In this document: piece after piece, positions 7,065-57,400 of the stretch
How the letters are laid out: every line of letters starts with the position of its first letter
Position numbering within the stretch: the stretch's first letter is position 1
Assembly: GCA_021325025.1 (NCBI GenBank)
Contig: JAJPHZ010000022.1
Span: forward strand, 74,646-138,645
Direction: 5' to 3'
Length of the DNA: 64,000 nt
Source of the DNA: Pseudomonadota bacterium
Lineage (GTDB): Bacteria > Desulfobacterota > Binatia > Binatales > Binataceae
Made by a program: the position numbers and the translations under genes
The notes under the pieces: model-generated
The model's database searches: none
Told to the model about the DNA's origin: nothing
Seen by the model: only the letters and a program-made list of their open reading frames with translations

Positions 7065-8560
7065 AACGGGAGGCCGCGCATGCTCCTCGCGCCCAGGCCG
7101 ACGACCGCCGGCTGTGGCGGGCATTCGCCCGCAGCGTGCTGTTCAACGTGCAGGCCGAGTTGGTTGCCAACCTGATTCGGGTGGGCGGCGTGATTTTTCT
7201 GGCGCGCGCCCTGGAGCCGCGCGACTTCGGCCTGCTGCGCATCCTGATCGTGCTCGGCGCGATCGCCGCGCTGATCGGCACCGCCGGGTTTCCCGAAGCG
7301 GTCATCCAGCGCAAGGAACTGTCGGGCGAGCATCAGACCACCGCCTGCTACCTGACCGCGGCGTGCGCCGGCGCGGTCGCCGCGATGCTGTTCGCCGCTG
7401 CGCCGCTGATTGAACGGCTGATGGCGATGGGGCATCTGGGTGCGATGATTCGCCTGCTGTGCGTGCCGATCTTTGTCGAAGGCACCTCGGCAATCCCCAA
7501 CGCCATCCTGCAACGCGCGCTTCGCTACGACGCGCTGGCCGCCGCCGACATCATCGCGGAGGGCGGTTTCGTCGCCGCCGCCGTCGCGTTGATTTACCTG
7601 GGGTTGCCCCGCCTCAGCCTGCCCGGCGGTCTGGGTGCACGCGCCCTGCTGCGCGGCGTCGCGATCTGGGCCGCGGCACGATTTGTTCCACGCGGCGCGC
7701 CCAGCCTGGGCGCCGCGCGCGAGCTATGGCCGTTTGCGGTCAGTGTGCTGGGCGGACAGACCCTGGTGATCCTGTCGCAAAACGCGGACTACGTGATGGT
7801 TGGACGGCTGCTGGGCGGCCGCGCGCTGGGCTTCTACGGCATGGCCTGGGACCTGCTGCGTTTCATCCCCGAACGCCTGTACCGGGTGGTAGGCCGCGTC
7901 ACACTGCCCGCCTTCAGCGCCATCTAGGAGCGGCAAAGCGAGCTGGCGCGCAGCTATCGCGCACTGATCGCGATGGTCGGGCGGATGCTGCTGCCGGCGA
8001 TGGCGCTGCTGGCGATCGCGGCTCCCAAACTGATTGTTACGATCTACGGGACAAAGTGGATGCCCGCCGCGCTGCCGCTGCGGCTGCTCACACCCGGACT
8101 GGCGCTGATCGGACTGCGCCTGGCGATCGGCTCCATCTACTATGCGCGCGGCTTTCCCGCCACCGACATTTTCGTCCACGGCCTGCGGTTGATCGCAATC
8201 GTGGCGGCGGTGGGGCTGACGGCGCCGCTGGGATTGGCGGCGGTGTGCGCCGCGATGAGCGCGGTGGAAGGCGCCGTGAGCGTGGCCGGGCAGTGGATCG
8301 TCTGCCGCATGATCAGGCTGGGTGCGTTGACCTTGGCCGCCGCCACCCTGCCGGGATTGTACAGCGCGGTGCTGTGTTCGGTGGTTGCGCTGGCCGGTGC
8401 GGCGCTGGCGGCGTGGCTGGCGGTGGCGGCGTGGCTGGCGCTGCTGGTGATGCTGGCGCCGGCGGGAGCCGCGTGGTGCTGGCGCGAACGCGCCACCGTG
8501 CGCGTGCTGTTGGGCGGCACGGACTTGCTCTCCAGCGCCGCCGAAGCGATGGGAGGATAA
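7061..8560 (+). pseudogene. Wzx-type polysaccharide flippase (MOP superfamily) interrupted by an in-frame TAG at 7925-7927
   Basis: ORFs 7061..7927 and 7973..8560 are in the same frame (both coordinate mod 3 = 2). Together they read as one typical 12-TM Wzx (...LPAFSAI*ERQSELARSYRALIAMVGRMLLPAMALLAIAAPKLIVTIYGTKWMPA...). TAG is used as a genuine stop elsewhere in this window (6394-6396). Confidence 0.55.
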
Positions 8561-43895: not shown

Positions 43896-44434
43896 GGTTT
43901 CCTCCCTGGCCGTTGGCCAATCCGAAAACAGTAGGTACTACGAGCGCGGCCCGCGTGCCAACCAGCAGAGCGCGGCCTGAACCGCGCTGTCGTTCGTAGT
44001 ACCGCGCAAGAATCCCAAGCCGGACGAACAAGTTTCCGCGACCCAAACCGGCTGGTAATAGCTGAGCACCGGAAGAAAAACGCGGTGCTGCACAAAGCTC
44101 TTGGTCCGCAGGCCCCCAAAAGGAGTTGAACGAGAGCTCCGTGGGGTTGCATTTTTTCTGCGGTCAAGGCAAATCTTAGAGTCGCATTGGAAGTCGATGG
44201 CAAGATTGGCGGCATAAAAAAAACGCGCGGCGGAACAGACCCCATTTTCTGCAAATTAACGATGTCCAAGTTTAGCTATTGATTTCAGAATTTACGTCTG
44301 ATAGTTGTTTTGCCGCAAGACGCTGAAACGATGGCGGAGCAGGTTTTTCTCCTTCATTTCTTTTGATGACCCCGTCATCTATGTATCATTGGCGAGGTTA
44401 AGGCAGATTGGAAAAGCGTGACGAGCTTCCGAAC

Positions 44435-44474: not shown

Positions 44475-45043
44475 TTACTGACGAGGCCAGCATAATGCTG
44501 AAGCCAGAGTGTTCAATTCGCTAGCTTCTTGGGCTCTGGCTGCAGTTGTGGGGGCTCCGGAGTTGCTGACTTGTGGGAAATCCCGAAAGTTTGCGCCAGT
44601 TTGCGGAAAGCTGACCGCAAATCTGTGTGGCTAGCGGCTCCAAGATGCTAGCGGACGGCTCCGGAGGCTGTGGACATCCTCTGGACCGAAAACGGGTTGC
44701 CGATCGAAGGAACGGCCGACCCGGTGGGCTGCATTGACGCGTTAAAGGGGGTTATCGTTAAAAGCAGCACGTTTTTACTGCTGCGCAACAACCGTGTGGG
44801 CTTCCCAGCACGGGATGGCGGACGCGTGTTCAAAAGGCCAAGACCGCCAATCCGAAGGATTTTCGGATCAGATCTTACCTTTTATAACTTGAAAGCTGCT
44901 ATTTGTCCTCTCACCTTTGCGGAATCGGGAGCGAGGCCCGTGATTTGCCCATCCCGGCGAAACGGCTGGTTTCGCCTCGCTCCAACTCCGCCTGTCGGAC
45001 CTAAAGGCTCAATGCGTTTTTGGAGGCCGGAGGGTAGGCTCTG

Positions 45044-48000
45044 ATGGCTCAACATCACACCGTTAAATTTGGCTGGCTCGCGACAGGCGCCATCGCGGCG
45101 GCCGCGATTGCCGCTTTGTCCCTGGCCGCACAGGCACAGGTCAGCGGTGGGGGCGGATTTCCGTACCCGACCGGGGTAACGAATGGGGCACCCGTCGCGC
45201 CTGCATATGGTGCAGGCACAGCCCCACCCTCGACGAACCCGTACGCCAATCCCGCCTATGGAAGTGCGCCGTATGGAACTGCGCCCTCCGCAGCAAACCC
45301 AGGGACTAACCCGTACACGACGCCCCCTTTCGGCAGTATCCCGCCCGGAAATCCGGCCTACGGGAGTTCTGCTTACGGACAAACCGCTCCAGGCTGGCAG
45401 GGTAGCTATTCCGCAACGCAATCCTACCTGTACTGGCGCGCTGCCGCCTGTGCCCGGGACCCTCGTAACTGTAGCAACGCGCCGTACAACGGCTACCTCG
45501 GTCCGAACGATTCCTCGTCGTTGTCGAAGTTCAATCCACCGATAACCGTGCCATACGGATCGGCGCCGATGCTGGGCCCGTATGGTTCGCCCGCGATCAC
45601 AGGGCCTTACGTGCCGCCCCCGGGGGGGACCTACGCTCCTCCGGCGCTTGCCAATACTCCGTATGGGCAGCCCGCTCCCTACGCTCAGCCCGGGGGATTC
45701 GGCGCCAATGGTGTGCCCGCCAACAACTCCTTTGCTCCCACGATGAGCAACCCACCCACGGGTGCACTGACCGGCGGGGCCGCATTCGGGCCTTATGGCC
45801 AACCCCCGATGGGCTATGTGGGACCGTCCTCACCGGGCCTGGCGGCCGGATCAGCCAACCTGGCAAACACCCAGATGCCCTCGCTTAACGGTCCTCCGCC
45901 CGCAGGTGGTTTTCCCTCCTCCGGCGGCTTTCCCAACTCAGGAACCATTGGATCATCGACGTCGGCCGCGAATGGCGGTCTGAACAATGCGTCGGGCGGC
46001 AACGGTGCGGCGGGTGGGTCAGGGATTTCCAACCTGCTCGGTGGAATCGACCAGAACACCCTCAACACCGTAGCCGCACAGCTTGGCGTTTCCACCGACC
46101 AACTCAACAAGCTCAAGACGGATGTCGCGAGCGGCGCGATTGGCTCCGACCAGCTACAGCAACTGAGCGCGCGCTTTGGTGCCCTGAACTTGAGCGACAA
46201 CCAGATGAACGCGATTGGCCGAACCTTGGGATTGAGCGACGCACAGATGGGCATGATCAAGCAGACGCTTGCGTCGGCCAGAGGTTCTCAACCCGGTATG
46301 CCAAACCCGGGCTTTGGCCCACCGCCCGCCGGGATAGCGCCGATGATGCCAGCGGTAAACGCAATGCCGCTACAGGTTCCGCCCTCGCCGATCGAGGTCA
46401 AGTTCCAACAAATCGACAATCCTTTGGACCTGCCCCAACCGCCGACAACCGACAATCTGACCCAGTTTGGCTACAACTTTTTTGTCTCAGGGGTTTCAAC
46501 CTTCGCGCCGGTGGCCAATGTGCCGGTGGGCAATGACTACGTCATCGGTCCGGGCGACGAAATCGATATCCTGCTGTGGGGGCGCGTCAACACCGTCTTG
46601 AACCCGGTCGTTGATCGCCAGGGAATGATCCAGGTGACGGAAATCGGACCGTTACAGGTCGCCGGCCTCACCTTTCAGCAAGCCAAAAAGCTGATCGAAG
46701 CCAAAGCCTCCAAAATGACCGGGGTTCAGGTCGACGTGACGATGGGCCAGTTGCGCACCATCAACGTGACCGTGGCCGGCGACGTCGTTCAGCCCGGCAG
46801 CTACCAGATCAGCGCTCTGTCGCGGGTTTCCAATGCGCTGGTGGCGGCGGGCGGGGTCAGCAAGGTCGGCAGCCTGCGCAACATCGAGGTGCGTCATGGC
46901 AATCAACTGGTCGATGTGATTGACATGTACGACATCCTGTTGCACGGCAACAATTCCGCCGACCGGCGCCTGGAAGAGGGCGACGTAATCTTCGTGCCGG
47001 TGATCGGTAGCGTGGTCGGGATTGCCGGCGACGTCAAGCGTCCGGCCATCTACGAGCTCAAGAAGGACCATCCCGAGACGCTGGATGCGGCATTAAGATT
47101 GGCAGGCGGAATTACCGGCTTCGGATTCGGCGACCATCTGCAGGTCGAGCGTATCCAGGACCACAAACGCATGGTGGCGATCAACGTCAGTCTCAGACGC
47201 CTGACCAATCAGAATTTCACGATTCGCGACGGCGATGTCATCAAGGTCTACCCGGTCATGATCGGGCCGGTCAACATGGTGATGCTGTCCGGAAACGTGC
47301 GCCGGCCGGGAAATTATCCGTGGTACAAAGGCATGCGTCTGTCTGACCTGATCAAAAAGGGCGACGGTGTATTGCCTAATACCTATTTGAAATACGCACT
47401 TGTTCGGCGGCTTTCCGGTCCGGGAAAGACCACTCATTTCCTCCAGGCCGATCTGGGCGATGCCCTGGCCAACCCCAGGATCGGGCAGGGTGACATTGCC
47501 CTGCAGCCCAAGGATGAAGTCGATATCTACAACGTTGAGGACGTCCGCGACCTGCCCTCCGTCGCGGTCAATGGAGAAGTGCGCCAGCCGGGCCGTTACG
47601 TCTTCAGCCCCGATATGAAGGTCAGCGACCTGGTCTTCATGGCCGGGGGATTGAAGGATGACGCCTACCAGGATCGCGTCGTGCTGGTGCGAACCGAAGT
47701 CGGCCCCGGTGGCAAGGCACAACGCAAACATTTCGATATCGATCTGCGCTCCATCATGCAGGGCAACTACAGTCTCGACACGCCGCTTAAGGCCAATGAC
47801 GAGTTATTCATAAGGTCGGTCGTGGACTGGCAGCGTCCGCCCCAGTTCGTTGAGATCACCGGCGAAGTCCGCATACCGGGTATCTATGACTACTATCCCG
47901 GCATGCGGGTCGGTGATCTGGTAGCTCTTGCCGGGGGAACACAGGATGATGCCTTTTTGAAGCGCGCGGAGCTGGCCCGCACTGAAGTTGTAAACGGTTC

Positions 48001-48949
48001 GCTGACGCGTCATACCTACATCGACATCGACCTGCGTCCGCAAGCCCAGGGCCCCAACGACAAGGCAACTCTGCTCAAACCCAATGACGAACTGTTGGTG
48101 AAGGCCGCGTCCAATTATCATCTGCCCTTTACCGTTACAGTCAGCGGCAAGGTGATGCGTCCGGGGGTTTACACAATCCGGGAAGGCGAACGGCTGCATT
48201 CGGTGCTTGAGCGATGCGGCGGCTTTTTGCCCGACGCCTTCGTGCAGGGCATCGTCTTCCGGCGGGTGTCAGTCCAGCAGATGGAGCAGGAGCGGCTCAA
48301 TGAAGCCCGCGAGCGGCTGAGCAAGGAAGCGGCGAACGTCGCGTTGACGCAGGCGCAGTTGGCGTCCTTCAACACCACCCCGGGCTCCGGGGCAAGCTCA
48401 GGCAACGCCACCGCCGCCATGATGGTATTGCAAAACGTGCTGTCGGCCTCCACCCGGCAGGCCGAAGGCCGCATGGTTATCCACGTCAATGCCGCGCTCG
48501 ACGGCAAGCCGGGTCCCGATGATGTCGTGCTGGAAGACGGCGACGAGATCGATGTCCCGGTCGTGCCGTCGTCAGTGATGGTGATGGGCGAGGTCAATCA
48601 TCCCAGTTCCTTCCTGAGACTGGGTTCCAAGACCGTGCGCGATTACATCAACGACGCCGGCGGTTTCACCCGTTATGCCGACAAAAAACAGGTCATCGTC
48701 ATCAAGGCGGACGGCTCGGTCCTGACCGCTGACGGCTACGATCAGAGCCGGCGCTCCAGGCTGTTTCCGGCCCTGCCGCTTATCTCGGGCGGCTTGATGG
48801 AGTCCAAACTGGAGGTCGGAGATACCGTTTTCGTTCCTGAAGATCTGTCCGGTTTCCAGAACATACAGATGACCAAGGATATAACGCAGATTGTAGCCAA
48901 CAGCGCCCAGAGCATAGCGATGATGGCGCTGCTCGCGACGCAACTGTAG
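45044..48949 (+). CDS. Giant multi-SLBB Wza/KpsD-like polysaccharide export protein fused to a roughly 450-aa Pro/Tyr/Gly/Ala-rich low-complexity N-terminal region
   Basis: GGAGG-rich RBS then ATG 45044. Signal peptide; residues roughly 30-460 are low-complexity (NPYANPAYGSAPYGTAP..., Gly/Ser-rich, LSDxQM helical repeats). A Poly_export-like domain follows (VIGPGDEIDILLWGR), then at least four beta-grasp SLBB repeats (each ...GEV..PG.Y......V.DL...AGG...). Confidence 0.8.
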   Translation: MAQHHTVKFGWLATGAIAAAAIAALSLAAQAQVSGGGGFPYPTGVTNGAPVAPAYGAGTAPPSTNPYANPAYGSAPYGTAPSAANPGTNPYTTPPFGSIPPGNPAYGSSAYGQTAPGWQGSYSATQSYLYWRAAACARDPRNCSNAPYNGYLGPNDSSSLSKFNPPITVPYGSAPMLGPYGSPAITGPYVPPPGGTYAPPALANTPYGQPAPYAQPGGFGANGVPANNSFAPTMSNPPTGALTGGAAFGPYGQPPMGYVGPSSPGLAAGSANLANTQMPSLNGPPPAGGFPSSGGFPNSGTIGSSTSAANGGLNNASGGNGAAGGSGISNLLGGIDQNTLNTVAAQLGVSTDQLNKLKTDVASGAIGSDQLQQLSARFGALNLSDNQMNAIGRTLGLSDAQMGMIKQTLASARGSQPGMPNPGFGPPPAGIAPMMPAVNAMPLQVPPSPIEVKFQQIDNPLDLPQPPTTDNLTQFGYNFFVSGVSTFAPVANVPVGNDYVIGPGDEIDILLWGRVNTVLNPVVDRQGMIQVTEIGPLQVAGLTFQQAKKLIEAKASKMTGVQVDVTMGQLRTINVTVAGDVVQPGSYQISALSRVSNALVAAGGVSKVGSLRNIEVRHGNQLVDVIDMYDILLHGNNSADRRLEEGDVIFVPVIGSVVGIAGDVKRPAIYELKKDHPETLDAALRLAGGITGFGFGDHLQVERIQDHKRMVAINVSLRRLTNQNFTIRDGDVIKVYPVMIGPVNMVMLSGNVRRPGNYPWYKGMRLSDLIKKGDGVLPNTYLKYALVRRLSGPGKTTHFLQADLGDALANPRIGQGDIALQPKDEVDIYNVEDVRDLPSVAVNGEVRQPGRYVFSPDMKVSDLVFMAGGLKDDAYQDRVVLVRTEVGPGGKAQRKHFDIDLRSIMQGNYSLDTPLKANDELFIRSVVDWQRPPQFVEITGEVRIPGIYDYYPGMRVGDLVALAGGTQDDAFLKRAELARTEVVNGSLTRHTYIDIDLRPQAQGPNDKATLLKPNDELLVKAASNYHLPFTVTVSGKVMRPGVYTIREGERLHSVLERCGGFLPDAFVQGIVFRRVSVQQMEQERLNEARERLSKEAANVALTQAQLASFNTTPGSGASSGNATAAMMVLQNVLSASTRQAEGRMVIHVNAALDGKPGPDDVVLEDGDEIDVPVVPSSVMVMGEVNHPSSFLRLGSKTVRDYINDAGGFTRYADKKQVIVIKADGSVLTADGYDQSRRSRLFPALPLISGGLMESKLEVGDTVFVPEDLSGFQNIQMTKDITQIVANSAQSIAMMALLATQL

Positions 48950-49176: not shown

Positions 49177-51012
49177 ATGCAAGCCAAGCTTACCCTGCTT
49201 CCGGATCGGCAAACCGTTGTGAGCGCGAAAGCTGCGCACCCTGCGCCGGCCCATTATCTACTTGCGTGGACTGGCGCCGTGATCGCGGCTGTAGCCGCGC
49301 TCCTGACTGCATGCTGTGCCGTGCGCGCCTCAACCTATGTGGTGTATATCGCACTGGATGACCCGGCTTACGACGAACTCGACAAACTAAACGGGATGGG
49401 CCTGCTCGACGACTATCTGTCCGAAATCAGGCCCATCGCCCGCGTCGAGGCGGCACGTCTGACCCTGGAGGCGCAGCGCAATCTGGACGAAGCCGAACAG
49501 CCCGATGCGCTGGCGGGCGTGCTAATCCGGTCGCTGCGCGAGGAGTTCCACGAAGAAATCCAGTGGCTGGAAAACGATCACGAAGACAATCCGCCCACCA
49601 TGATTCATCCGCTGGAACGGGTGGAAGCGCAATACATTTATTCAAGCGGCACGCGCCGGCGGTTTGCGCTCTTTAGCTCCAATCCGCTTGAGTATCAGGC
49701 CCAGGAAGCCACTCCGCTGCTGGCCAACAACGATGGTTTACCCACTTCGCCGGGCAGCAACGAGATCTTGCGCATTTCGAACTGGGCAGGCGTGGGCGGC
49801 TTTCTGACTGCGTACGGCGAAACCTCGGTCGCCGGCCCAATCGTTCACAGCCCTGCGCTCTTTGAGCAGGCTTGGCCGCCTGGCGCGCTCTACAACGGCT
49901 CTCCCGCCGTCACCCAAACCTCGGATACCAACCGGCTGCGTCTGCTGCGCGGGGGCGTGGTGGCAAGCATCGGCAATCAGGCGCTGGCCTTTGGCTACCA
50001 GGAAATGGGCTGGGGCACAGGGTACTTCGCTCCGCTATCGCAGGGCAACAATGCGCGTGCGTTTCCGGCCTTGACCTTTCAAAGCGTTCATCCCAGGCTG
50101 CTGCCGGGCTTCTTGCGCTACCTGGGACCGTTTCGGCATCAGATCTTCGTCGGGCGCCTTAATAACGGCCGCTATGCGGAAGATCTGCGGTTAACCCCCC
50201 CGTTGCTCAAGAACTACAATTACCCCTGGATTTCGGGGCAGGTCATCGCGTTCAAACCGCTGCCGACCTTCGAGTTCGGCCTGGATCACGTAATCATGTT
50301 CGGCGGGGCCGGCAACTCAAATTACGGATGGACCGGATGGCTGGGACGCGCCACCGGCCTGAACACCGGAAATACCAGTCAGGGAAATACCAACTCACGC
50401 GGCGGCGTGTTCCTGAAGATATATCTCCCGAGCCTGCGTAACACGGAGATTTACCAGGAGATCCTCGGCGAAGATAATCTGAGCACCGAATTCCGGCCGG
50501 TGGGAGGAGCGCTGCCGTTCCTGTCCGTTTCCTACCAGGGGGGAGTATATATCCCGCGCGTGACCGCCGACGGTTTGACCGATGCCCGCTTCGAATATGC
50601 GCTCATCGAACCGAACTATTCCAGGCACGACGACTCGCTGTACTGGGCCTATTACGGTCAGTTGATGGCGGATCCGATCGGTCCTGACGCCACCGAAATC
50701 GATTTGAGTGTCGGCCGCTGGTTCAATTACCGTTACCGGGGAGACGCCGACGTCTTCTATACCGAACGCGCCCCGAACTTCGAGATTGCCGGGCTCAGCA
50801 AGGAGCGCAGCGGCGGTATCGCGATCGATGTGATGCAGATCCCGGGCAGATTCGACGTCCAAAACTTCTCCCTTCTCGGTTCGCTCAGAGTACGGGCCGC
50901 ATGTGAGTATGTGCATGACATCAACTGGATGCGCGGAACCGACTCGGTGCGGACGATGGTGCTGATATCGGGATCCCTGTGGCCGGCTTGGGGAAGCTGG
51001 ATCTGGCACTAA
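49177..51012 (+). CDS. Putative outer-membrane beta-barrel protein, possibly capsule-assembly Wzi-family
   Basis: After an N-terminal signal/TM, a helical segment (DDPAYDELDKLNGMGLLDDYLSEIRPIARVEAARL) resembles the Wzi N-domain pattern Y..L..L...G......RP..R.E.A.L. The remainder is aromatic/Gly-rich and the protein ends in an aromatic-rich tail (WGSWIWH). Position next to wza fits. Family assignment is from memory only. Confidence 0.45.
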   Translation: MQAKLTLLPDRQTVVSAKAAHPAPAHYLLAWTGAVIAAVAALLTACCAVRASTYVVYIALDDPAYDELDKLNGMGLLDDYLSEIRPIARVEAARLTLEAQRNLDEAEQPDALAGVLIRSLREEFHEEIQWLENDHEDNPPTMIHPLERVEAQYIYSSGTRRRFALFSSNPLEYQAQEATPLLANNDGLPTSPGSNEILRISNWAGVGGFLTAYGETSVAGPIVHSPALFEQAWPPGALYNGSPAVTQTSDTNRLRLLRGGVVASIGNQALAFGYQEMGWGTGYFAPLSQGNNARAFPALTFQSVHPRLLPGFLRYLGPFRHQIFVGRLNNGRYAEDLRLTPPLLKNYNYPWISGQVIAFKPLPTFEFGLDHVIMFGGAGNSNYGWTGWLGRATGLNTGNTSQGNTNSRGGVFLKIYLPSLRNTEIYQEILGEDNLSTEFRPVGGALPFLSVSYQGGVYIPRVTADGLTDARFEYALIEPNYSRHDDSLYWAYYGQLMADPIGPDATEIDLSVGRWFNYRYRGDADVFYTERAPNFEIAGLSKERSGGIAIDVMQIPGRFDVQNFSLLGSLRVRAACEYVHDINWMRGTDSVRTMVLISGSLWPAWGSWIWH

Positions 51013-51027: not shown

Positions 51028-52098
51028 ATGGCGAATAACGAAGAGTTCAACGGGTCCAGGCAGACCCCTGCACAAAGCGGCAATGGCATCTTCGAGCTCG
51101 ACGGTGCGGCCGGAGAGGAAAGCAGCGGCATTCTGCGTTCCTACCTGGCGCTGGTCGCCCTGCGTCACCGCCGTCTGCTGATTGCCGCCACGGTGTCTTC
51201 AATGGTCCTGGTCTTCTGTCTGACCAAGTTCGTGATGAATCCCAAGTACCTGTCGACCGCGATCATCCGGCCGATCGGCCAAAGCACCAGCGGCATCGGC
51301 GGCCTGCTGCAGAGTACCGGGTTGTCCAACATGGCCAACATGAGCGGCACCGGAATTGACAGCGACATCGGCACCAATGTGCACGATCCGGAGGAATTGG
51401 TAGCCATCTTGAAAAGCTACACCTTCACCTCCAACCTCATCGAGAGCGAAAAACTCGGCCCCAGGCTTGGTGGAGGACACAGCATCTGGTCGCTGGTGCC
51501 CGCTTTTTTACGTCCCAAAGGCGGCGGCGGGTCGCCGCTGTGGGACTACTATCAGACGGTGAGTTCGCGTTTTGATTGTGAAAACAGCATGCGCACCGGC
51601 AATATCACCTTAACCTACATCGACAAGGATCCTGAACTGGCCAACTACGTCCTGCGCCTTTATATCGACCACCTGCGCGACCAGCTTCGCGCCCACGATG
51701 TAGCTTATGACAAGGCGGCGGCCAGATCGCTACAGCAGCAGGCGGCCACGGTCAGCGATCCGATGCTGCGCGACGACCTCTACGATCTCGCCGCCCGGCA
51801 AATAAAAAAGATTGGAACCGCGCAGGCCAACGCCGACTTCGCCTTCACCGTCCTGGAGAGACCCTACACCCCGCCTTATCCCGACCGGCCCTGGGTGGTG
51901 CTCGATACGCTGGCCGCCGGCATCGTGGTGCCGCTGTTTGTTTTTCTGGGCTTGGTGGTGCGCGACTGGGCGCCGCGTGTGAAGCACGATCTCGCTGAGG
52001 CTGCCTATGTGTCGGAGCGCACTCCCGACAGCATTGCGCTGTCGAGGAGACCTCGGCGTGCTCCGAGCCCCGAACAGGACCGGCCGTACACCGGATGA
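51028..52098 (+). CDS. Wzz-like polysaccharide co-polymerase (PCP-1 type, two TM helices)
   Basis: An N-terminal TM (LLIAATVSSMVLVFCLTKFV) directly precedes a Wzz-like motif (NPKYLSTAIIRP). A periplasmic coiled-coil follows, then a C-terminal TM (VVLDTLAAGIVVPLFVFLGLVV). Confidence 0.65.
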   Translation: MANNEEFNGSRQTPAQSGNGIFELDGAAGEESSGILRSYLALVALRHRRLLIAATVSSMVLVFCLTKFVMNPKYLSTAIIRPIGQSTSGIGGLLQSTGLSNMANMSGTGIDSDIGTNVHDPEELVAILKSYTFTSNLIESEKLGPRLGGGHSIWSLVPAFLRPKGGGGSPLWDYYQTVSSRFDCENSMRTGNITLTYIDKDPELANYVLRLYIDHLRDQLRAHDVAYDKAAARSLQQQAATVSDPMLRDDLYDLAARQIKKIGTAQANADFAFTVLERPYTPPYPDRPWVVLDTLAAGIVVPLFVFLGLVVRDWAPRVKHDLAEAAYVSERTPDSIALSRRPRRAPSPEQDRPYTG

Positions 52099-52143
52099 AG
52101 GTAAGTTCCGCGGTTGGCGTGCCGGTATAGTTCCCTGATTCTC

Positions 52144-52818
52144 ATGACGCTCGACCCATATCTGATCAAAAGGGTACCGAAATGGCATTGGAAACGCTTG
52201 ACCTTTACTGCGTGGGCAAAACTGTCGGACCTGCATAGCCGGCTCTTCTTCCAGGAATACGAGATTCCCATGATCGATCGCGTCGGTGAACCCGGCGCCG
52301 CGCCCGATGCCTGTTGGGATGAAACTCAGGTCACACCGCAGCAAGCGGCCTACTTGTTAAAGGCCCTCGCCTTGGCTGACAATTGCGGGGAGTGCGTCGT
52401 CGAGGTCGGCGCCTGGCGCGGGGTCACGACGGAATATCTCGCCGCGGCCACCGACTCTCCCGTAGTTGCGATCGACCCGTTTATCGGTTCGGCAAACGAG
52501 ACCAACTTGCGCCGCTTCATGGAGCGGACCGCCGCCCTGGGGAATGTCACGTTGAGGCGCGAGACTTTTGGCCAGGCAGTGCGCAACTGGAATCTTGGTC
52601 CGGCGCGATTCATTTTCATCGACGCCGCTCATGACTACGTCAACGTGAGCCATGATCTTGCCGCGGCGATGCGTATCACGAAGCCGGGAGCGATTTTGGC
52701 ACTACACGATGTTGACGATCGGCGCTATGCTGGATGCCGAAGGGCGGTCTACGAGCGGTTAGAACGGTTCGAGCTTATCGCGCACATTCCGAACCTCGTC
52801 ATAGTGCGGCGATCTTAA
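52144..52818 (+). CDS. Class I SAM-dependent methyltransferase (Methyltransf_24/TylF-related O-methyltransferase)
   Basis: Motif I VVEVGAWRG and post-I IFIDAAHDY...ILALHDV. The start is uncertain (ATG 52144 preferred; TTG 52114 and ATG 52270 are alternatives). Confidence 0.6.
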   Translation: MTLDPYLIKRVPKWHWKRLTFTAWAKLSDLHSRLFFQEYEIPMIDRVGEPGAAPDACWDETQVTPQQAAYLLKALALADNCGECVVEVGAWRGVTTEYLAAATDSPVVAIDPFIGSANETNLRRFMERTAALGNVTLRRETFGQAVRNWNLGPARFIFIDAAHDYVNVSHDLAAAMRITKPGAILALHDVDDRRYAGCRRAVYERLERFELIAHIPNLVIVRRS

Positions 52819-52828
52819 GTAATCGGCG

Positions 52829-53623
52829 GTGAAGAATATACTTAAATCCTTTCTGCGTAGCTATCTTCTGGAAAGAGGATGGCGGCCGGCGGCTGCGATA
52901 CCGATCGAGGCCGCATGCCTTAACACCACGTTTCATTACGATGAAGAGCAAGATATAAGGCGTGCCATAGCAATTGTTCGCGGTCATACAATGATGTCTT
53001 TCGAGCGAGCTGCGACGCTTTGGCAACAGATGCGCTATCTTGACCGCCATCAGATCGAGGGTGCCATGGTGGAATGTGGTGTTTGGAAAGGCGGTGCCGT
53101 GGGACTGAGCGCCCTGGCGCACCTGGCGTCAGCAGCTCCTCCCCGCCGCCACCTCCATCTGTTCGACAGTTTCAACGGTCTTCCGGAGCCCGATGAGGAA
53201 CTGGACGGTCACAAAGCCGTACAGCTGAGCAATGGCAGGGCTTCGGGACGTCTCCAATCAACAAATGTGCTGGTGGCCGGAATCGAGGATAGCAAGACTC
53301 TTCTTGAGAGCATCATCGGCTATCCAAAAGAGCTGATTCATTACCATCGGGGCTGGTTTCAAGATACCATACCGCGTGATGCCAATACGATTGGTGCAAT
53401 CGCACTCCTCAGAATGGACGGCGACTGGTACGAGTCAACCGCGATCTGCATCAAGTATCTGTATCCGAAGGTCGCAAAGAACGGTATTGTCGTGATCGAC
53501 GACTATGGTCACTTCGAAGGGTGCCGCCGTGCGATAGACGAGTTTCTAGCCAAAGAAGCGTGTCCCATATTCTTAAACCATGTCGATTATGCCTGCCGGT
53601 ACTTTATCAAGCCTGAACGATGA
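52829..53623 (+). CDS. TylF/MycF-family macrocin-type sugar O-methyltransferase
   Basis: Family motifs ECGVWKGGA, LFDSFNGLP, and MDGDWYEST...VIDDYGHFEGCRRAIDEF. Confidence 0.8.
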   Translation: MKNILKSFLRSYLLERGWRPAAAIPIEAACLNTTFHYDEEQDIRRAIAIVRGHTMMSFERAATLWQQMRYLDRHQIEGAMVECGVWKGGAVGLSALAHLASAAPPRRHLHLFDSFNGLPEPDEELDGHKAVQLSNGRASGRLQSTNVLVAGIEDSKTLLESIIGYPKELIHYHRGWFQDTIPRDANTIGAIALLRMDGDWYESTAICIKYLYPKVAKNGIVVIDDYGHFEGCRRAIDEFLAKEACPIFLNHVDYACRYFIKPER

Positions 53624-56512: not shown

Positions 56513-57400
56513 ATGGCGCGTAAACCGAATTTCTTCATAATTGGCGCTCCCAAGTGCGGCACGACTTCTCTGGCTACCTATCTCCGTGAACACCCAAAAA
56601 TATTCTTCCCGGCTCGAAAGGAACTGCTCTTTTTCAACACCGATATGGCGTCCCGGGCGGTCCGGTCCGAGGCCGATTACTATGGATATTTCAGTGATGC
56701 CCAGCCGCAGCATATTGCAGTCGGTGAAGGCTCAGTAACGTATCTATATTCCGACGCAGCGGTACCCAATATCCTGAAAGCAATTCCCGACGCCAAGTTT
56801 ATCGTGATGGCGCGCAATCCGATCGACATGGCGGTCTCCTTGCACGCGCAGCTTCACCGCCAGGGAGACGAAAATTTGAAAGACTTCGCGACCGCCTGGC
56901 ATGTGCAGGAAAAGAGAAAAAAGGGAAAGCGGATTCCGCCGCTTTGCACCGATCCGAGCCTTTTACTGTATGGCAATGTCTGCAGCGTCGGATGGCAGTT
57001 GAAGCGGCTTTACACTAGAGTTGCCCGGCACCGTGTGCTCGTCCTCTTCCAAGACGACCTCAAGCGCGACACCAGGTCGGTGTATCTGCAGACACTGGAG
57101 TTTCTTGGCGTGCCGGACGACGGCCGAACGGCCTTCGGCGTCCACAATACTCGCCAGCCCCGGCTCCGCTCGCAACTTTTTCAGGCCGTACTCCGCTCCA
57201 TCGGCGTTCTAAAACTGAGACTGGGTGTGAAACGTTCATTCCGCATCCTGCCTCTGATCGAGCGACTCAATGTTACGTCCGTCCGAGAGAGCGTGATCGA
57301 CCGGGAATTCAAGGTGGAGTTGGCGCAATACTTCCGCAACGACGTGGAAGAGATGTCCACCCTTGTAGACCGTGATCTGTCAGCGTGGCTGCGAGTCTGA
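56513..57400 (+). CDS. PAPS-dependent sulfotransferase (carbohydrate sulfotransferase-like)
   Basis: 5'-PSB motif FFIIGAPKCGTTSL at the N-terminus. A 3'-PB-like region (RNPIDMAVSLHAQ). Confidence 0.8.
   Translation: MARKPNFFIIGAPKCGTTSLATYLREHPKIFFPARKELLFFNTDMASRAVRSEADYYGYFSDAQPQHIAVGEGSVTYLYSDAAVPNILKAIPDAKFIVMARNPIDMAVSLHAQLHRQGDENLKDFATAWHVQEKRKKGKRIPPLCTDPSLLLYGNVCSVGWQLKRLYTRVARHRVLVLFQDDLKRDTRSVYLQTLEFLGVPDDGRTAFGVHNTRQPRLRSQLFQAVLRSIGVLKLRLGVKRSFRILPLIERLNVTSVRESVIDREFKVELAQYFRNDVEEMSTLVDRDLSAWLRV

What the first reader, a model, noticed from the sequence alone, without database searches (positions are those of the whole stretch)
45044..48949. Giant Wza/KpsD-like exporter fused to a 450-aa Pro/Tyr/Gly-rich low-complexity N-terminal region
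A 1301-aa ORF in which residues roughly 30-460 are low complexity. This part carries PY/PYG-rich segments (NPYANPAYGSAPYGTAPSAANPGTNPYTTPPFG...GPYGSPAITGPYVPPPGGTYAPP), Gly/Ser/Asn-rich stretches, and four short amphipathic repeats of the form LS-D-x-Q-M/L (VSTDQLNKLK, GSDQLQQLS, LSDNQMNAIG, LSDAQMGMIK). A canonical polysaccharide-export domain and at least four SLBB beta-grasp repeats follow. Group-4/KpsD-type multi-SLBB exporters are known, but fusion to such a long proline/tyrosine-rich extension is not something I recognise. It could be a periplasm-spanning or cell-wall-anchoring tether, an intrinsically disordered spacer, or a site for Tyr cross-linking or glycosylation.
Basis: partly seen in the sequence, partly recalled or inferred. 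Interest (0 to 1): 0.7.

Follow-up and report, generated by a model that had tools for sequence, protein, structure and literature searches.

The report
Giant sugar exporter with disordered tail
This is a real 1301-residue outer-membrane polysaccharide exporter whose first ~460 residues, absent from textbook exporters, consist of a long uncharged tyrosine/proline/glycine-rich disordered tail plus a small, previously unannotated five-helix domain, found only in a small group of uncultured soil bacteria.

Summary
The ORF (45044-48949, +) is real and intact. The same frame stays open in four independent homologous loci, and two gene callers call the same protein. It is a Wza-type OPX exporter: cleavable signal peptide, Poly_export domain, seven SLBB repeats (not four) and a conserved C-terminal amphipathic helix. 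No GfcC domain was found, so it is not KpsD-type.

The N-terminal 460 residues are not uniform. Residues 32-328 are an almost uncharged G/P/A/S/Y/N tail (2% charged, 10.6% aromatic, AF2 pLDDT about 30) holding a small conserved Cys-loop motif. Residues about 335-412 are a conserved five-helix domain (pLDDT 72-89). A Pro/Met linker follows.

The domain has no Pfam, NCBIfam or PDB relative. It occurs in only 41 of 1.84 billion representative proteins, nearly all N-termini of multi-SLBB exporters. It looks like an elaboration of a short helix-turn-helix motif common after the signal peptide in this family.

The tail sits beyond the domain with a free end, so it is not a tether between anchors. 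My inferred mechanism is a docking module plus a sticky disordered collar at the inner-membrane-proximal mouth of the channel. This is a new variant of a known kind, of moderate interest.

The parts
44817..44828 (+). Conserved ops-like element GGCGGACGCGTG in the ~1.15-kb leader, 227 nt upstream of the start codon. It is a regulatory accessory, not part of the protein.
   Evidence: Core GCACG.GA.GGCGGACGC(G/T)TG is conserved in otherwise divergent leaders of 5 independent loci. It is 10/12 identical to E. coli ops12 GGCGGTAGCGTG (PMC5995543). A NusG-family gene sits next to the homologous locus L010.
45029..45034 (+). Shine-Dalgarno GGAGGG, 9 nt before the ATG
   Evidence: Read directly from the sequence.
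45044..48949 (+). Complete ORF, 1301 aa plus stop: multi-SLBB OPX exporter with N-terminal extension
   Evidence: The identical protein is called by NCBI (HLI63605.1) and JGI.
45044..45136 (+). Sec signal peptide, residues 1-31 (K8; hydrophobic 12-28; A29-Q30-A31 | Q32). There is no lipobox Cys.
   Evidence: Sequence. AF2 helix 13-29. An AxA-Q site is seen in most full-length relatives shown. This is rule-based; SignalP was not available.
45137..45397 (+). Low-complexity tail part 1, residues 32-118 (P/G/A/T/Y/S/N; PYG/AYG motifs)
   Evidence: Entropy 3.12 bits. pLDDT 31-36. No positional conservation among homologues.
45398..45508 (+). Conserved Cys-loop island, residues ~119-155 (YLYWRAAAC136ARDPRNC143SNAPYNGYLGPN). 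It contains 5 of the tail's 6 charged residues.
   Evidence: WRAA(A/L)CARDPR(N/F)C..GYLGPN is conserved in P0002-P0004 and L004. AF2 predicts a helix at 124-138 with low confidence only (pLDDT 33-43).
45509..46027 (+). Low-complexity tail part 2, residues 156-328 (G/P/A/S/N-rich, GFP/PYG motifs, ending in a Gly/Ser/Asn stretch)
   Evidence: Entropy 3.32 bits. pLDDT 29-36. Length and sequence vary among homologues while composition is kept.
46028..46288 (+). Conserved five-helix module, residues 329-415 (helices 337-347, 351-362, 368-380, 385-395, 399-412).
   Evidence: 74% mean column identity in 8 homologues. pLDDT 72-86 in context and 75-89 alone, pTM 0.59. Only 41 hits in 1.84e9 representatives. 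A Cys pair appears and disappears together at the positions of S375 and T408 (19 both, 30 neither, 2 truncated).
46289..46384 (+). Pro/Met-rich linker, residues 416-447
   Evidence: P 29%, M 9% over residues 416-460. pLDDT 35-45. The module-to-FGY spacing ranges from 40 to 165 aa in relatives.
46385..46522 (+). Family-wide pre-domain segment, residues 448-493 (SPIEvKFqqiDnP...LtQFGYNFF)
   Evidence: S448, E451, F454, D458, Q474, G476, Y477 and F480 are invariant or nearly so in 15 sequences. The S.IE..F motif and FGY anchor are also seen in distant family members.
46523..46744 (+). Poly_export (PES / Wza D1-like) domain, residues 494-567
   Evidence: Pfam PF02563, E 6e-16. phmmer to Wza 2J58, E 4e-11. 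Foldseek to Wza and WzaB, prob 1.0.
46760..48838 (+). Seven SLBB beta-grasp repeats, residues ~573-1265. The sixth carries an ~70-aa helical insertion at residues ~1075-1145 (nt 48266-48478).
   Evidence: Pfam SLBB 7 stretches E 2e-61, SLBB_2 5 stretches E 8e-42. Repeat starts are at 579, 662, 750, 844, 940, 1035 and 1182.
48851..48946 (+). Conserved C-terminal amphipathic-to-hydrophobic helix candidate, residues 1270-1301 (Wza_C-like)
   Evidence: Conserved to the last residue in 17 relatives. The hydrophobic moment peaks at 1274-1292, then a hydrophobic end. It is not detected by Pfam Wza_C.
49177..51012 (+). Syntenic partner: Wzi-like outer-membrane barrel, 611 aa
   Evidence: Pfam Caps_assemb_Wzi, E 1e-50. 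It lies next to the OPX gene in the window, L006, L010 and L011.
51028..52098 (+). Syntenic partner: short PCP-like protein, 356 aa, two TM segments (~50-70 and ~292-312), no kinase domain
   Evidence: Weak Wzz hit, E 8e-4, below Pfam threshold. Sequence. Wzz-family genes of 265-298 aa lie in the loci of distant relatives.

Best explanation
[quoted passage not shown] It has a Poly_export - 7xSLBB - C-terminal helix body and serves a Wzx/Wzy-dependent polysaccharide locus. That locus holds a Wzi-like barrel, a short PCP, a flippase, a polymerase, glycosyltransferases, methyltransferases and a sulfotransferase.

In front of the Poly_export domain it carries a lineage-specific appendage, in this order:
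1. A ~290-aa uncharged Tyr/Pro/Gly-rich intrinsically disordered tail with a free N-terminus and one embedded disulfide-capable loop.
2. A compact ~80-aa five-helix domain.
3. A ~30-aa Pro/Met linker.

How it most likely works (inferred): in Wza, the Poly_export ring is the inner-membrane-facing end of the octameric channel and is the part that docks onto the co-polymerase (PMC12881504). The appendage therefore hangs at the PCP-OPX junction, deep in the periplasm.
- I propose that the five-helix domain is an adaptor or docking module. It would be an enlarged version of the short 'TPxQLxxLxxLSPxQRxxL' helix-turn-helix that most multi-SLBB exporters carry right after their signal peptide. It would couple the base of this very long channel to the short, arm-less PCP or to another inner-membrane-proximal partner.
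- I propose that the eight aromatic-rich, charge-free tails per channel act as a multivalent 'sticker-and-spacer' brush. Weak Tyr/Phe-mediated contacts with one another, or with glycan chains by CH-pi stacking, would form a soft collar around the entrance. That collar could retain or guide the nascent polymer, or cluster export machines.

Shown: gene integrity, domain order, disorder versus fold, conservation pattern, restricted distribution and periplasmic signature.
Inferred: octamer, position at the junction, docking, collar.
For: Gene integrity:
- The ORF and a Shine-Dalgarno are present.
- The same frame is open in 4 independent loci, and NCBI and JGI make the same call.

OPX body:
- Pfam Poly_export plus 7 SLBB.
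- NCBIfam EpsE/pepcterm_export sub-threshold hits.
- phmmer to Wza structures, E 3e-11.
- Foldseek of the AF2 model to Wza and WzaB, prob 1.0.
- A conserved terminal amphipathic helix.

Locus: Wzi-like, PCP-like, MTases, GT4, Wzx, sulfotransferase, Wzy, GTs. Synteny is conserved.

Disorder versus fold: pLDDT is about 30 over 32-334 and 72-89 over the module.

The module is a real periplasmic domain:
- 74% column identity across homologues.
- Perfect co-occurrence of a Cys pair at two helices in 19 of 49 complete sequences. This implies 3D contact and an oxidising compartment.

The module is family-specific:
- 41 hits among 1.84e9 proteins, nearly all at OPX N-termini, and located 40-165 aa before the Poly_export anchor wherever that anchor was found.
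- Link to the common N-terminal motif: hhalign prob 79%, E 1.6e-5. The motif follows the signal peptide in dozens of relatives.

Tail composition is conserved while sequence is not:
- Charged fraction is 0-2.2% in 12 of the 14 relatives measured.
- Aromatics are 7-12%, spaced more evenly than random (p<=0.009 in P0002, P0003, P0004, P0008 and P0018; p=0.077 for this protein).
- A second, unrelated OPX (P0015, 33% identity, no module) has independently placed a 270-aa Y/G/P-rich segment next to its Poly_export core.

D1 is the PCP-docking end: PMC12881504 and PMC12819527.
Against: - No experiment or complex model supports docking or collar formation. Only monomer predictions were possible.
- Tail length before the module varies from ~30 to ~325 aa, and several relatives have no Tyr at all. 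The aromatic tail therefore cannot be essential to the family's core mechanism.
- Even spacing of aromatics is only marginal for this particular protein (p=0.077).
- Signal-peptide cleavage is rule-based only.
- Whether the C-terminal helix spans the outer membrane is untested. The Pfam Wza_C model does not hit.
- Stoichiometry is assumed from Wza.
Confidence: 0.5

Rival explanations
1. The folded module is functional, but the Tyr/Pro/Gly tail is essentially neutral. It would be low-complexity sequence that expanded by replication slippage in a tolerant, unconstrained N-terminal position and has no specific role.
For: - Pre-module length ranges from ~30 to ~325 aa, with no positional conservation and many indels.
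- Most family members manage with a ~110-aa pre-domain region.
- A small 15-bp tandem repeat lies inside the tail.
- Tyr is absent from the tails of several relatives.
Against: - Composition is held tightly while sequence drifts: charged residues are 0-2% against 22% in the body, and aromatics are 7-12% with spacing more regular than random in five relatives.
- A conserved Cys-loop island is maintained inside the tail.
- An unrelated OPX acquired a similar segment independently.
- There is almost no DNA-level repetitiveness (only 2 short arrays). The tail is therefore not a recent slippage product.
Confidence: 0.25
2. The tail is primarily a glycan-binding 'fishing line'. Evenly spaced Tyr/Phe/Pro would bind sugar rings by CH-pi stacking. 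The tail would capture the nascent (probably methylated or sulfated) polysaccharide from Wzy/PCP and feed it into the channel, or hold the machine to peptidoglycan.
For: - Aromatic content of 10.6% with no charges. Aromatic residues are the usual sugar-stacking residues in carbohydrate-binding sites (general knowledge).
- The tail sits next to the Poly_export ring, where the polymer enters.
- A lytic transglycosylase gene lies within a related locus, suggesting that the machine crosses the wall.
- KpsD function depends on Lpp-peptidoglycan linkage in E. coli (PMC5442458, title and abstract).
Against: - There is no similarity to any carbohydrate-binding module.
- The polysaccharide-specific genes differ between syntenic loci while the tail type is kept.
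- Tails of some relatives lack aromatics.
Confidence: 0.15
3. The N-terminal hydrophobic segment is an uncleaved signal anchor. The protein would then be pinned in the inner membrane at one end and the outer membrane at the other, and the Pro-rich region would be a true periplasm-spanning tether.
For: There is a hydrophobic helix at 12-29. Pro-rich, extended-type composition resembles TonB-like spanning segments (general knowledge).
Against: - A canonical small-x-small site followed by Gln (AQA|Q) is seen in most full-length relatives shown, despite otherwise divergent signal peptides.
- The h-region is Ala-rich and short, typical of cleaved Sec signals.
- Eight stacked rings already provide a rigid spanning structure.
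Confidence: 0.07
4. Assembly or annotation artefact: two genes joined by a frameshift, or the low-complexity part belonging to another frame or strand.
For: Long alternative ORFs overlap the region (for example 44882-45802 on the minus strand, 306 aa), as expected in GC-rich low-complexity DNA.
Against: - Only frame 0 is open throughout in the window, L006, L002 and L004. The alternative frames break at different places.
- The signal peptide, tail, module and exporter are collinear in at least 5 independent full-length homologues.
- The identical protein was recovered from independent NCBI, JGI and SRA assemblies.
Confidence: 0.01

Closest known systems
Class 1 OPX proteins (Wza of E. coli group 1 capsule / colanic acid; architecture Poly_export-SLBB(1-14)-Wza_C as defined in PMC9603273)
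   Same: Both have a Poly_export domain followed by SLBB repeats and a C-terminal helix at the extreme end. The gene sits in a Wzx/Wzy-type locus with a PCP and a Wzi-like gene. Sequence and fold match Wza D1-D2.
   Different: - Seven SLBB repeats instead of two.
- 1301 aa against a class median of 378 aa.
- No lipobox: a Sec/SPI signal rather than the lipoprotein signal of ~78% of Class 1.
- The Pfam Wza_C model does not hit.
- About 460 residues precede Poly_export, whereas the literature treats Poly_export as the N-terminal domain.
Other multi-SLBB ('giant') OPX proteins of ~600-1100 aa from Proteobacteria, Binatia and other phyla (for example P0009, P0010, Shewanella 'sugar transporter' P0105)
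   Same: They share the body plan, the S.IE..F / FGY pre-domain segment and the conserved C-terminal helix. They sit in the same gene trio with a Wzi-like barrel and a short Wzz-like PCP. A short N-terminal helix-turn-helix 'TPxQLxxLxxLSPxQR' aligns to helices 3-4 of the module.
   Different: Their pre-domain region is typically ~107-112 aa (maximum 284 in the 87 sampled), against 474 here. They have one helix-turn-helix rather than a five-helix domain, and no Tyr/Pro/Gly tail.
KpsD / Class 2 OPX (group 2 and group 4 capsule exporters)
   Same: Both are multi-SLBB exporters with a Sec signal and no lipid anchor.
   Different: Class 2 is defined by a GfcC-like domain after the SLBB repeats (PMC9603273). 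None was detected here, and the locus is Wzx/Wzy-type rather than ABC-transporter-type.
Aromatic-rich, low-charge disordered regions of the 'sticker-and-spacer' type (FUS-like [G/S]Y[G/S] low-complexity domains, resilin SYGAP repeats, FG-nucleoporins). This comparison rests on my own knowledge, not on a tool.
   Same: All have very low charge, G/S/P/N/Q/A spacers and regularly spaced Tyr/Phe. GYG/PYG/AYG are the dominant Tyr contexts.
   Different: This one is bacterial and periplasmic. It is Pro-rich, is not a regular repeat, and its behaviour (phase separation, elasticity, gating) is entirely untested here. It is an analogy only, not homology.

Membership tests
OPX superfamily (Wza-like) | Poly_export (PF02563) domain | tested here: met
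   Pfam 58.8 bits against cutoff 28, residues 494-567. phmmer to Wza 2J58, E 4e-11.
OPX superfamily (Wza-like) | At least one SLBB domain following Poly_export | tested here: met
   SLBB 204 bits (7 stretches), SLBB_2 142 bits (5 stretches). Seven repeat starts.
OPX superfamily (Wza-like) | Encoded in a polysaccharide assembly locus with a PCP partner | tested here: met
   Wzi-like, PCP-like (two TM segments, weak Wzz hit), Wzx, Wzy and GT genes lie downstream. Synteny is conserved.
Class 1 OPX (PMC9603273) | C-terminal outer-membrane-spanning Wza_C helix | tested here: inconclusive
   There is no Pfam Wza_C hit at E<=0.01. The last ~30 residues are nevertheless conserved to the C-terminus in 17 relatives and are amphipathic then hydrophobic. 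The HHpred-to-2J58 criterion of the defining paper could not be run.
Class 1 OPX (PMC9603273) | N-terminal lipoprotein signal (present in ~78% of the class, so typical rather than strictly defining) | tested here: not met
   There is no Cys before residue 136. An AQA|Q Sec/SPI-type site is present.
Class 1 OPX (PMC9603273) | Octameric channel | not testable with these tools
   Only monomer predictions were available.
Class 2 OPX (KpsD-like) | GfcC-like domain after the SLBB repeats | tested here: not met
   No GfcC-family hit appears in the Pfam scan of the whole protein at E<=0.01.
Class 2 OPX (KpsD-like) | ABC-transporter-dependent (KpsMT/KpsE) locus | tested here: not met
   The neighbours are a Wzx-type flippase and a Wzy-type polymerase. 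No ABC-transporter genes were found among the ORFs scanned from 37093 to 63678.
XrtA/PEP-CTERM EpsE-type exporter (NCBIfam TIGR03028/TIGR03027) | Score above the curated equivalog cutoff | tested here: not met
   156.9 bits against cutoff 262.65, and 129 bits against 180. It is related but not a member.
Any annotated domain for residues 1-493 | Significant Pfam, NCBIfam or PDB sequence or fold match | tested here: not met

The most novel reading that the evidence does not exclude
The eight charge-free, evenly Tyr/Phe-studded tails per channel form a cohesive FG-nucleoporin-like or resilin-like phase at the periplasmic mouth of the exporter. This would be a soft selective gasket that seals the PCP-OPX junction, admits the growing polysaccharide and excludes periplasmic proteins. 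The five-helix module would assemble into an extra 'D0' ring beneath the Poly_export ring. If so, this would be a disordered-phase gate on a bacterial polysaccharide secretion channel, something not described for any OPX system.
Probability: 0.1. Interest if true: 0.8.

Novelty: new variant of a known kind. Interest (0 to 1): 0.45.

Why it matters
Work on OPX exporters has centred on Wza, KpsD and the short myxobacterial proteins. In these, the Poly_export domain is treated as the N-terminal, co-polymerase-facing end.

This protein and about 40 related clusters show that a clade of very long exporters places additional machinery in front of that domain. One part is a compact, unannotated helical domain that deserves a family definition. 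In a few lineages a second part is a ~300-residue aromatic-rich disordered tail of a type rarely discussed for the bacterial periplasm.

If the module proves to be the coupling device between giant exporters and their short, arm-less co-polymerases, it would explain how such systems bridge the envelope. If the tail self-associates or binds glycans, it would be a tractable bacterial example of sticker-spacer disorder working outside the cytoplasm.

Practically, the module's profile is a specific marker for this exporter clade in soil metagenomes.

Tried and rejected
- **Whole-protein homologue search.** It was swamped by low-complexity words: only 16 hits were scored. I repeated it with residues 326-700.
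- **Homologue search with the Cys-loop island.** It returned 'no candidate', although P0002-P0004 clearly share the motif. The result is uninformative and probably reflects a word or low-complexity filter. Whether this motif occurs in other proteins remains unknown.
- **PDB profile search.** The best hits are de novo designed alpha/alpha toroids. I read this as resemblance to idealised capped helix-loop-helix repeats, not homology.
- **Rfam scan of the window.** No hits, so the long leader holds no known RNA family.
- **Promoter/terminator scan of the leader.** Nothing found.
- **tblastn for a NusG paralogue in the window and the L001-L009 loci.** Nothing found.
- **Literature.** No description of an N-terminal extension or disordered region on OPX proteins. 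Searches on Binatia polysaccharides were uninformative.
- **The 124-aa ORF 44670-45044 abutting the start codon.** Considered and rejected as a gene. It has no family hit, it is not called by NCBI or JGI, and it lies in a leader that aligns poorly with the homologous locus apart from the regulatory islands.
- **The antisense 306-aa ORF 44882-45802.** Considered and rejected. It is not conserved in homologous loci.

Full report
**1.

The window contains an uninterrupted 1301-codon ORF at 45044-48949 on the + strand. A GGAGGG Shine-Dalgarno lies nine bases before the ATG.

Composition confirms a strongly biased N-terminal region:
- Residues 32-118 are P/G/A/T/Y-rich, with entropy 3.12 bits.
- Residues 161-328 are G/P/A/S/N-rich, with entropy 3.32 bits.
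- Residues 461-1301 have entropy 4.05 bits.

Over residues 32-324 only 2.0% of residues are charged, against 21.9% in the body. Aromatics make up 10.6% (21 Tyr, 8 Phe, 2 Trp), mostly in PYG, AYG and GFP contexts.

Pfam finds Poly_export at 494-567 and multiple SLBB/SLBB_2 matches. It finds nothing in 1-493 even at E<=10.

**2. It is one gene, not an artefact**

- The identical 1301-aa product is called by NCBI (HLI63605.1, labelled Terriglobales bacterium MAG) and by JGI on independent assemblies.
- Homologues of 1256-1343 aa at 52-66% identity (P0002, P0003, P0004, P0008, and the Binataceae locus L004) have the same order of parts: signal peptide, biased tail, conserved helical block, linker, exporter.
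- In the window and in three independent loci, only the exporter's frame stays open across the tail. The other frames, including the 306-aa antisense ORF, break at different places.
- GC by codon position in the tail reflects Pro/Gly/Ala codons (high GC2) and gives no sign of a foreign insert.

**3. Anatomy**

- Residues 1-31 form a Sec-type signal peptide: K8, an Ala-rich hydrophobic core, and AQA|Q. There is no lipobox. The small-x-small-Gln site is seen in most full-length relatives.
- Residues 32-328 form the tail. It is predicted disordered (pLDDT about 30). Its sequence and length are not conserved, but its composition is.
- Inside the tail sits an island at about 119-155, YLYWRAAAC136ARDPRNC143..GYLGPN. 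It is conserved in the closest relatives and contains 5 of the tail's 6 charged residues. AF2 suggests a helix here only at low confidence.
- Residues about 335-412 form five helices with pLDDT 72-86 in context and 75-89 when modelled alone (pTM 0.59).
- Residues 416-447 are a Pro/Met-rich linker.
- Residues 448-493 (SPIE.KF...QFGYNFF) are a family-wide pre-domain segment.
- Then come Poly_export and seven SLBB repeats, starting at 579, 662, 750, 844, 940, 1035 and 1182. The sixth carries a ~70-aa helical insertion.
- The final ~30 residues are conserved to the last residue and are amphipathic then hydrophobic.

The folded part of the 700-aa model matches Wza D1-D2 and M. xanthus WzaB with Foldseek probability 1.0. 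phmmer finds Wza at E 3e-11. No GfcC domain was found.

**4. The helical module is a genuine, rare, periplasmic domain**

- An exhaustive profile search against 1.84 billion representative proteins found only 41 hits at E<=1e-3, 9 of them at E<=1e-10. Nearly all are N-terminal parts of multi-SLBB exporters or fragments of them. The few others (an HTH-repeat protein, a tape-measure-like protein) are weak.
- Wherever the Poly_export 'FGY' anchor was found, the module lies 40-165 residues before it, and it follows a G/A/P/S-rich segment of ~30 to ~325 residues.
- In an alignment of 51 module sequences, 19 have Cys at both of two columns (the positions of S375 in helix 3 and T408 at the end of helix 5). 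Thirty have Cys at neither column. The only two with one Cys are fragments truncated before helix 5.
- That all-or-none pattern is what a disulfide predicts. It argues for a compact fold in an oxidising compartment.

**5. Relation to the wider family**

- Among 87 signal-peptide-bearing relatives recovered with residues 326-700, the distance from the start to the FGY anchor clusters at 107-112 residues, with a maximum of 284. Here it is 474.
- Most of these relatives carry a short motif right after the signal peptide of the form TPxQLxxLxxLSPxQRxxL..G.
- Profile-profile comparison aligns this motif to helices 3-4 of the module (probability 79%, E 1.6e-5).
- I read the module as an elaboration of a family-wide N-terminal helix-turn-helix, and the long aromatic tail as a further addition in a few lineages. 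This is suggestive rather than proven.
- A different exporter (P0015, 33% identity, no module, different locus) has independently acquired a 270-aa Y/G/P/S/Q-rich segment directly before its Poly_export core. It has 10.4% aromatics, evenly spaced (p=0.02).

**6. Context**

- The gene follows a ~1.15-kb leader downstream of divergently transcribed fatty-acid-oxidation genes.
- It is followed by a Wzi-like barrel (611 aa), a 356-aa PCP-like protein with two TM segments and no kinase, two methyltransferases, GT4 enzymes, a Wzx flippase, a sulfotransferase, a Wzy-like polymerase and an AsnB-like amidotransferase.
- The first three genes are syntenic in the homologous locus, while the sugar-specific genes differ.
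- Distant relatives keep the trio of exporter, Wzi-like barrel and short Wzz-like PCP.

**7. Mechanism**

Established knowledge:
- In Wza-Wzc, the Poly_export (D1) ring is the inner-membrane-facing end and the site of contact with the co-polymerase's helical arms. Deleting D1 abolishes co-localisation (PMC12881504).
- WzaB likewise contacts its PCP through the D1 side (PMC12819527).

Inference:
- The appendage, which begins ~45 residues upstream of D1, hangs at the PCP-exporter junction.
- The PCP here is short. I therefore propose that the five-helix module is a docking adaptor supplied by the exporter.
- The tail lies beyond the module and probably has a free N-terminus, so it cannot be a tether between two anchors.
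- Its charge-free, regularly aromatic composition fits multivalent weak binding, either to other tails (eight per channel if octameric) or to glycans.
- I therefore propose a soft collar at the channel mouth.
- I rate the anatomy as secure and the mechanism as a hypothesis. Combined confidence is 0.5.

Rivals:
- A functionally neutral tail (0.25).
- A mainly glycan-binding fishing line (0.15).
- An uncleaved signal anchor making the tail a true tether (0.07).
- An artefact (0.01).

**8. Comparison with known families**

- The body fits Class 1 OPX of PMC9603273 (Poly_export-SLBB(1-14)-Wza_C).
- It departs from Class 1 in three ways. It lacks the usual lipoprotein signal. The C-terminal helix could not be confirmed with the defining HHpred test. 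And ~460 residues precede the domain that the literature treats as N-terminal.
- It is not Class 2/KpsD-like: no GfcC domain was found and the locus is Wzx/Wzy-type.
- It scores below the NCBIfam cutoffs for EpsE and pepcterm_export.

**9. Novelty and score**

- The exporter is ordinary.
- The unannotated five-helix module and the sticker-spacer-like periplasmic tail are, as far as Pfam, NCBIfam, PDB and the searchable literature show, undescribed.
- The features are confined to uncultured bacteria and no function is demonstrated.
- I class it as a new variant of a known kind, with interest 0.45.

**10. Seen in passing**

- The leader contains a 12-mer, GGCGGACGCGTG, at 44817-44828. It is conserved as GGCGGACGC(G/T)TG in five otherwise divergent leaders.
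- It matches E. coli ops12 (GGCGGTAGCGTG; PMC5995543) at 10 of 12 positions, including the C3:G8 pair and the TG pause dinucleotide.
- One related locus encodes a NusG paralogue just upstream.
- This points to RfaH-like antitermination of the operon.

Noticed in passing
window 44817-44828 (core of a conserved block ~44808-44850); also L006 9729-9740, L001 6817-6828, L002 6892-6907, L004 6682-6697, L010 ~7853-7866: An ops-like element GGCGGACGC(G/T)TG is conserved in the otherwise divergent long leaders of five independent exporter loci, 140-350 nt before the start codon. It matches E. coli ops12 GGCGGTAGCGTG at 10/12 positions, including C3, G8 and the terminal TG (PMC5995543). It suggests RfaH/NusG-paralogue antitermination of the polysaccharide operon.
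   Followed up: partly
L010 6076-6591 and 11195-11740: In a distant module-bearing exporter locus, a NusG-family gene (PF02357, 171 aa) lies 1.4 kb upstream of the exporter. An SLT lytic transglycosylase gene lies between the exporter and the Wzi-like gene. tblastn found no NusG paralogue in the 64-kb window or in L001-L009.
   Followed up: partly
window ~44274-44312: A second conserved island in the leader (GCTATTGATTTC..CGTCTG.TA.TT.TTTT) lies within the AT-rich stretch (GC 0.45). It is possibly the promoter region. The sigma-70 consensus scan found nothing.
   Followed up: no
window 44786-44806: An inverted repeat GCAGCAcgtttttacTGCTGC lies just upstream of the ops-like block. I saw it by eye only; it was not folded or compared across loci.
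   Followed up: no
window 49177-51012: A Wzi-like outer-membrane protein of 611 aa (longer than the Pfam core; ~170 extra N-terminal residues) is the invariable neighbour of this exporter family in the window, L006, L010 and L011. If the exporter's C-terminal helix does not span the membrane, this barrel could be part of the translocon.
   Followed up: partly
window 51028-52098: A PCP-like protein of 356 aa has two TM segments, a ~220-aa periplasmic part and no tyrosine-kinase domain. Its Wzz hit is below the Pfam threshold (20.1 against 25.5 bits). It is much shorter than Wzc and may lack the long helical arms that reach Wza.
   Followed up: partly
window 52114-53623 and 56513-57400: Two methyltransferases (one TylF-like O-methyltransferase) and a sulfotransferase lie in the cluster. 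The exported polymer is probably O-methylated and sulfated. The homologous locus L006 has a different set of sugar genes (dTDP-sugar pathway, other methyltransferases).
   Followed up: no
P0002 residues ~400-470, P0003 ~350-490 (homologues, not the window): The linker after the helical module is expanded in relatives into Met/Pro/Asn/Gly repeats such as PNGMPPNGMMPNGM. The window protein has only a short Pro/Met version (416-447). Met-rich periplasmic repeats elsewhere bind Cu(I) (my own knowledge). This was not examined.
   Followed up: no
P0008 residues ~76-125 and ~365-390; P0059, P0062, P0038 tails: Other family members carry different Cys-pair loops in their tails. P0008, for example, has three copies of FTCPNNVQP(Y/F)QGQNGWVCPNT, two before and one after the module. 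Small disulfide loops within the disordered tails appear to be a recurrent feature.
   Followed up: no
P0015 / L012 8001-11300: An unrelated multi-SLBB exporter (33% identity, no helical module) carries a 270-aa Y/G/P/S/Q-rich segment inserted between an FAYDFF motif and its Poly_export core. This is an independent acquisition of the same kind of low-complexity sequence.
   Followed up: partly
window 45253-45285 and 46507-46535: These are the only DNA-level tandem repeats found in the scanned stretch 44900-46600: two 15-bp arrays of ~2 copies. The low complexity is therefore compositional, not a recent repeat expansion.
   Followed up: yes
window 44670-45044: A 124-aa ORF ends one base into the exporter's start codon. 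It has no family hit and no gene caller calls it. It lies in the non-coding leader and is probably spurious.
   Followed up: yes
taxonomic labels of P0001, P0058/P0063/L004, L001/L002: The exact protein is labelled Terriglobales (Acidobacteriota) in NCBI. Its closest relatives are labelled Candidatus Binataceae or 'Proteobacteria bacterium' MAGs. The true lineage of the window is uncertain.
   Followed up: no
L003 and L005: Homologous genes in two long-read MAGs (MFD isolates) are broken into short ORFs around the module. These are most likely sequencing frameshifts rather than pseudogenes.
   Followed up: no
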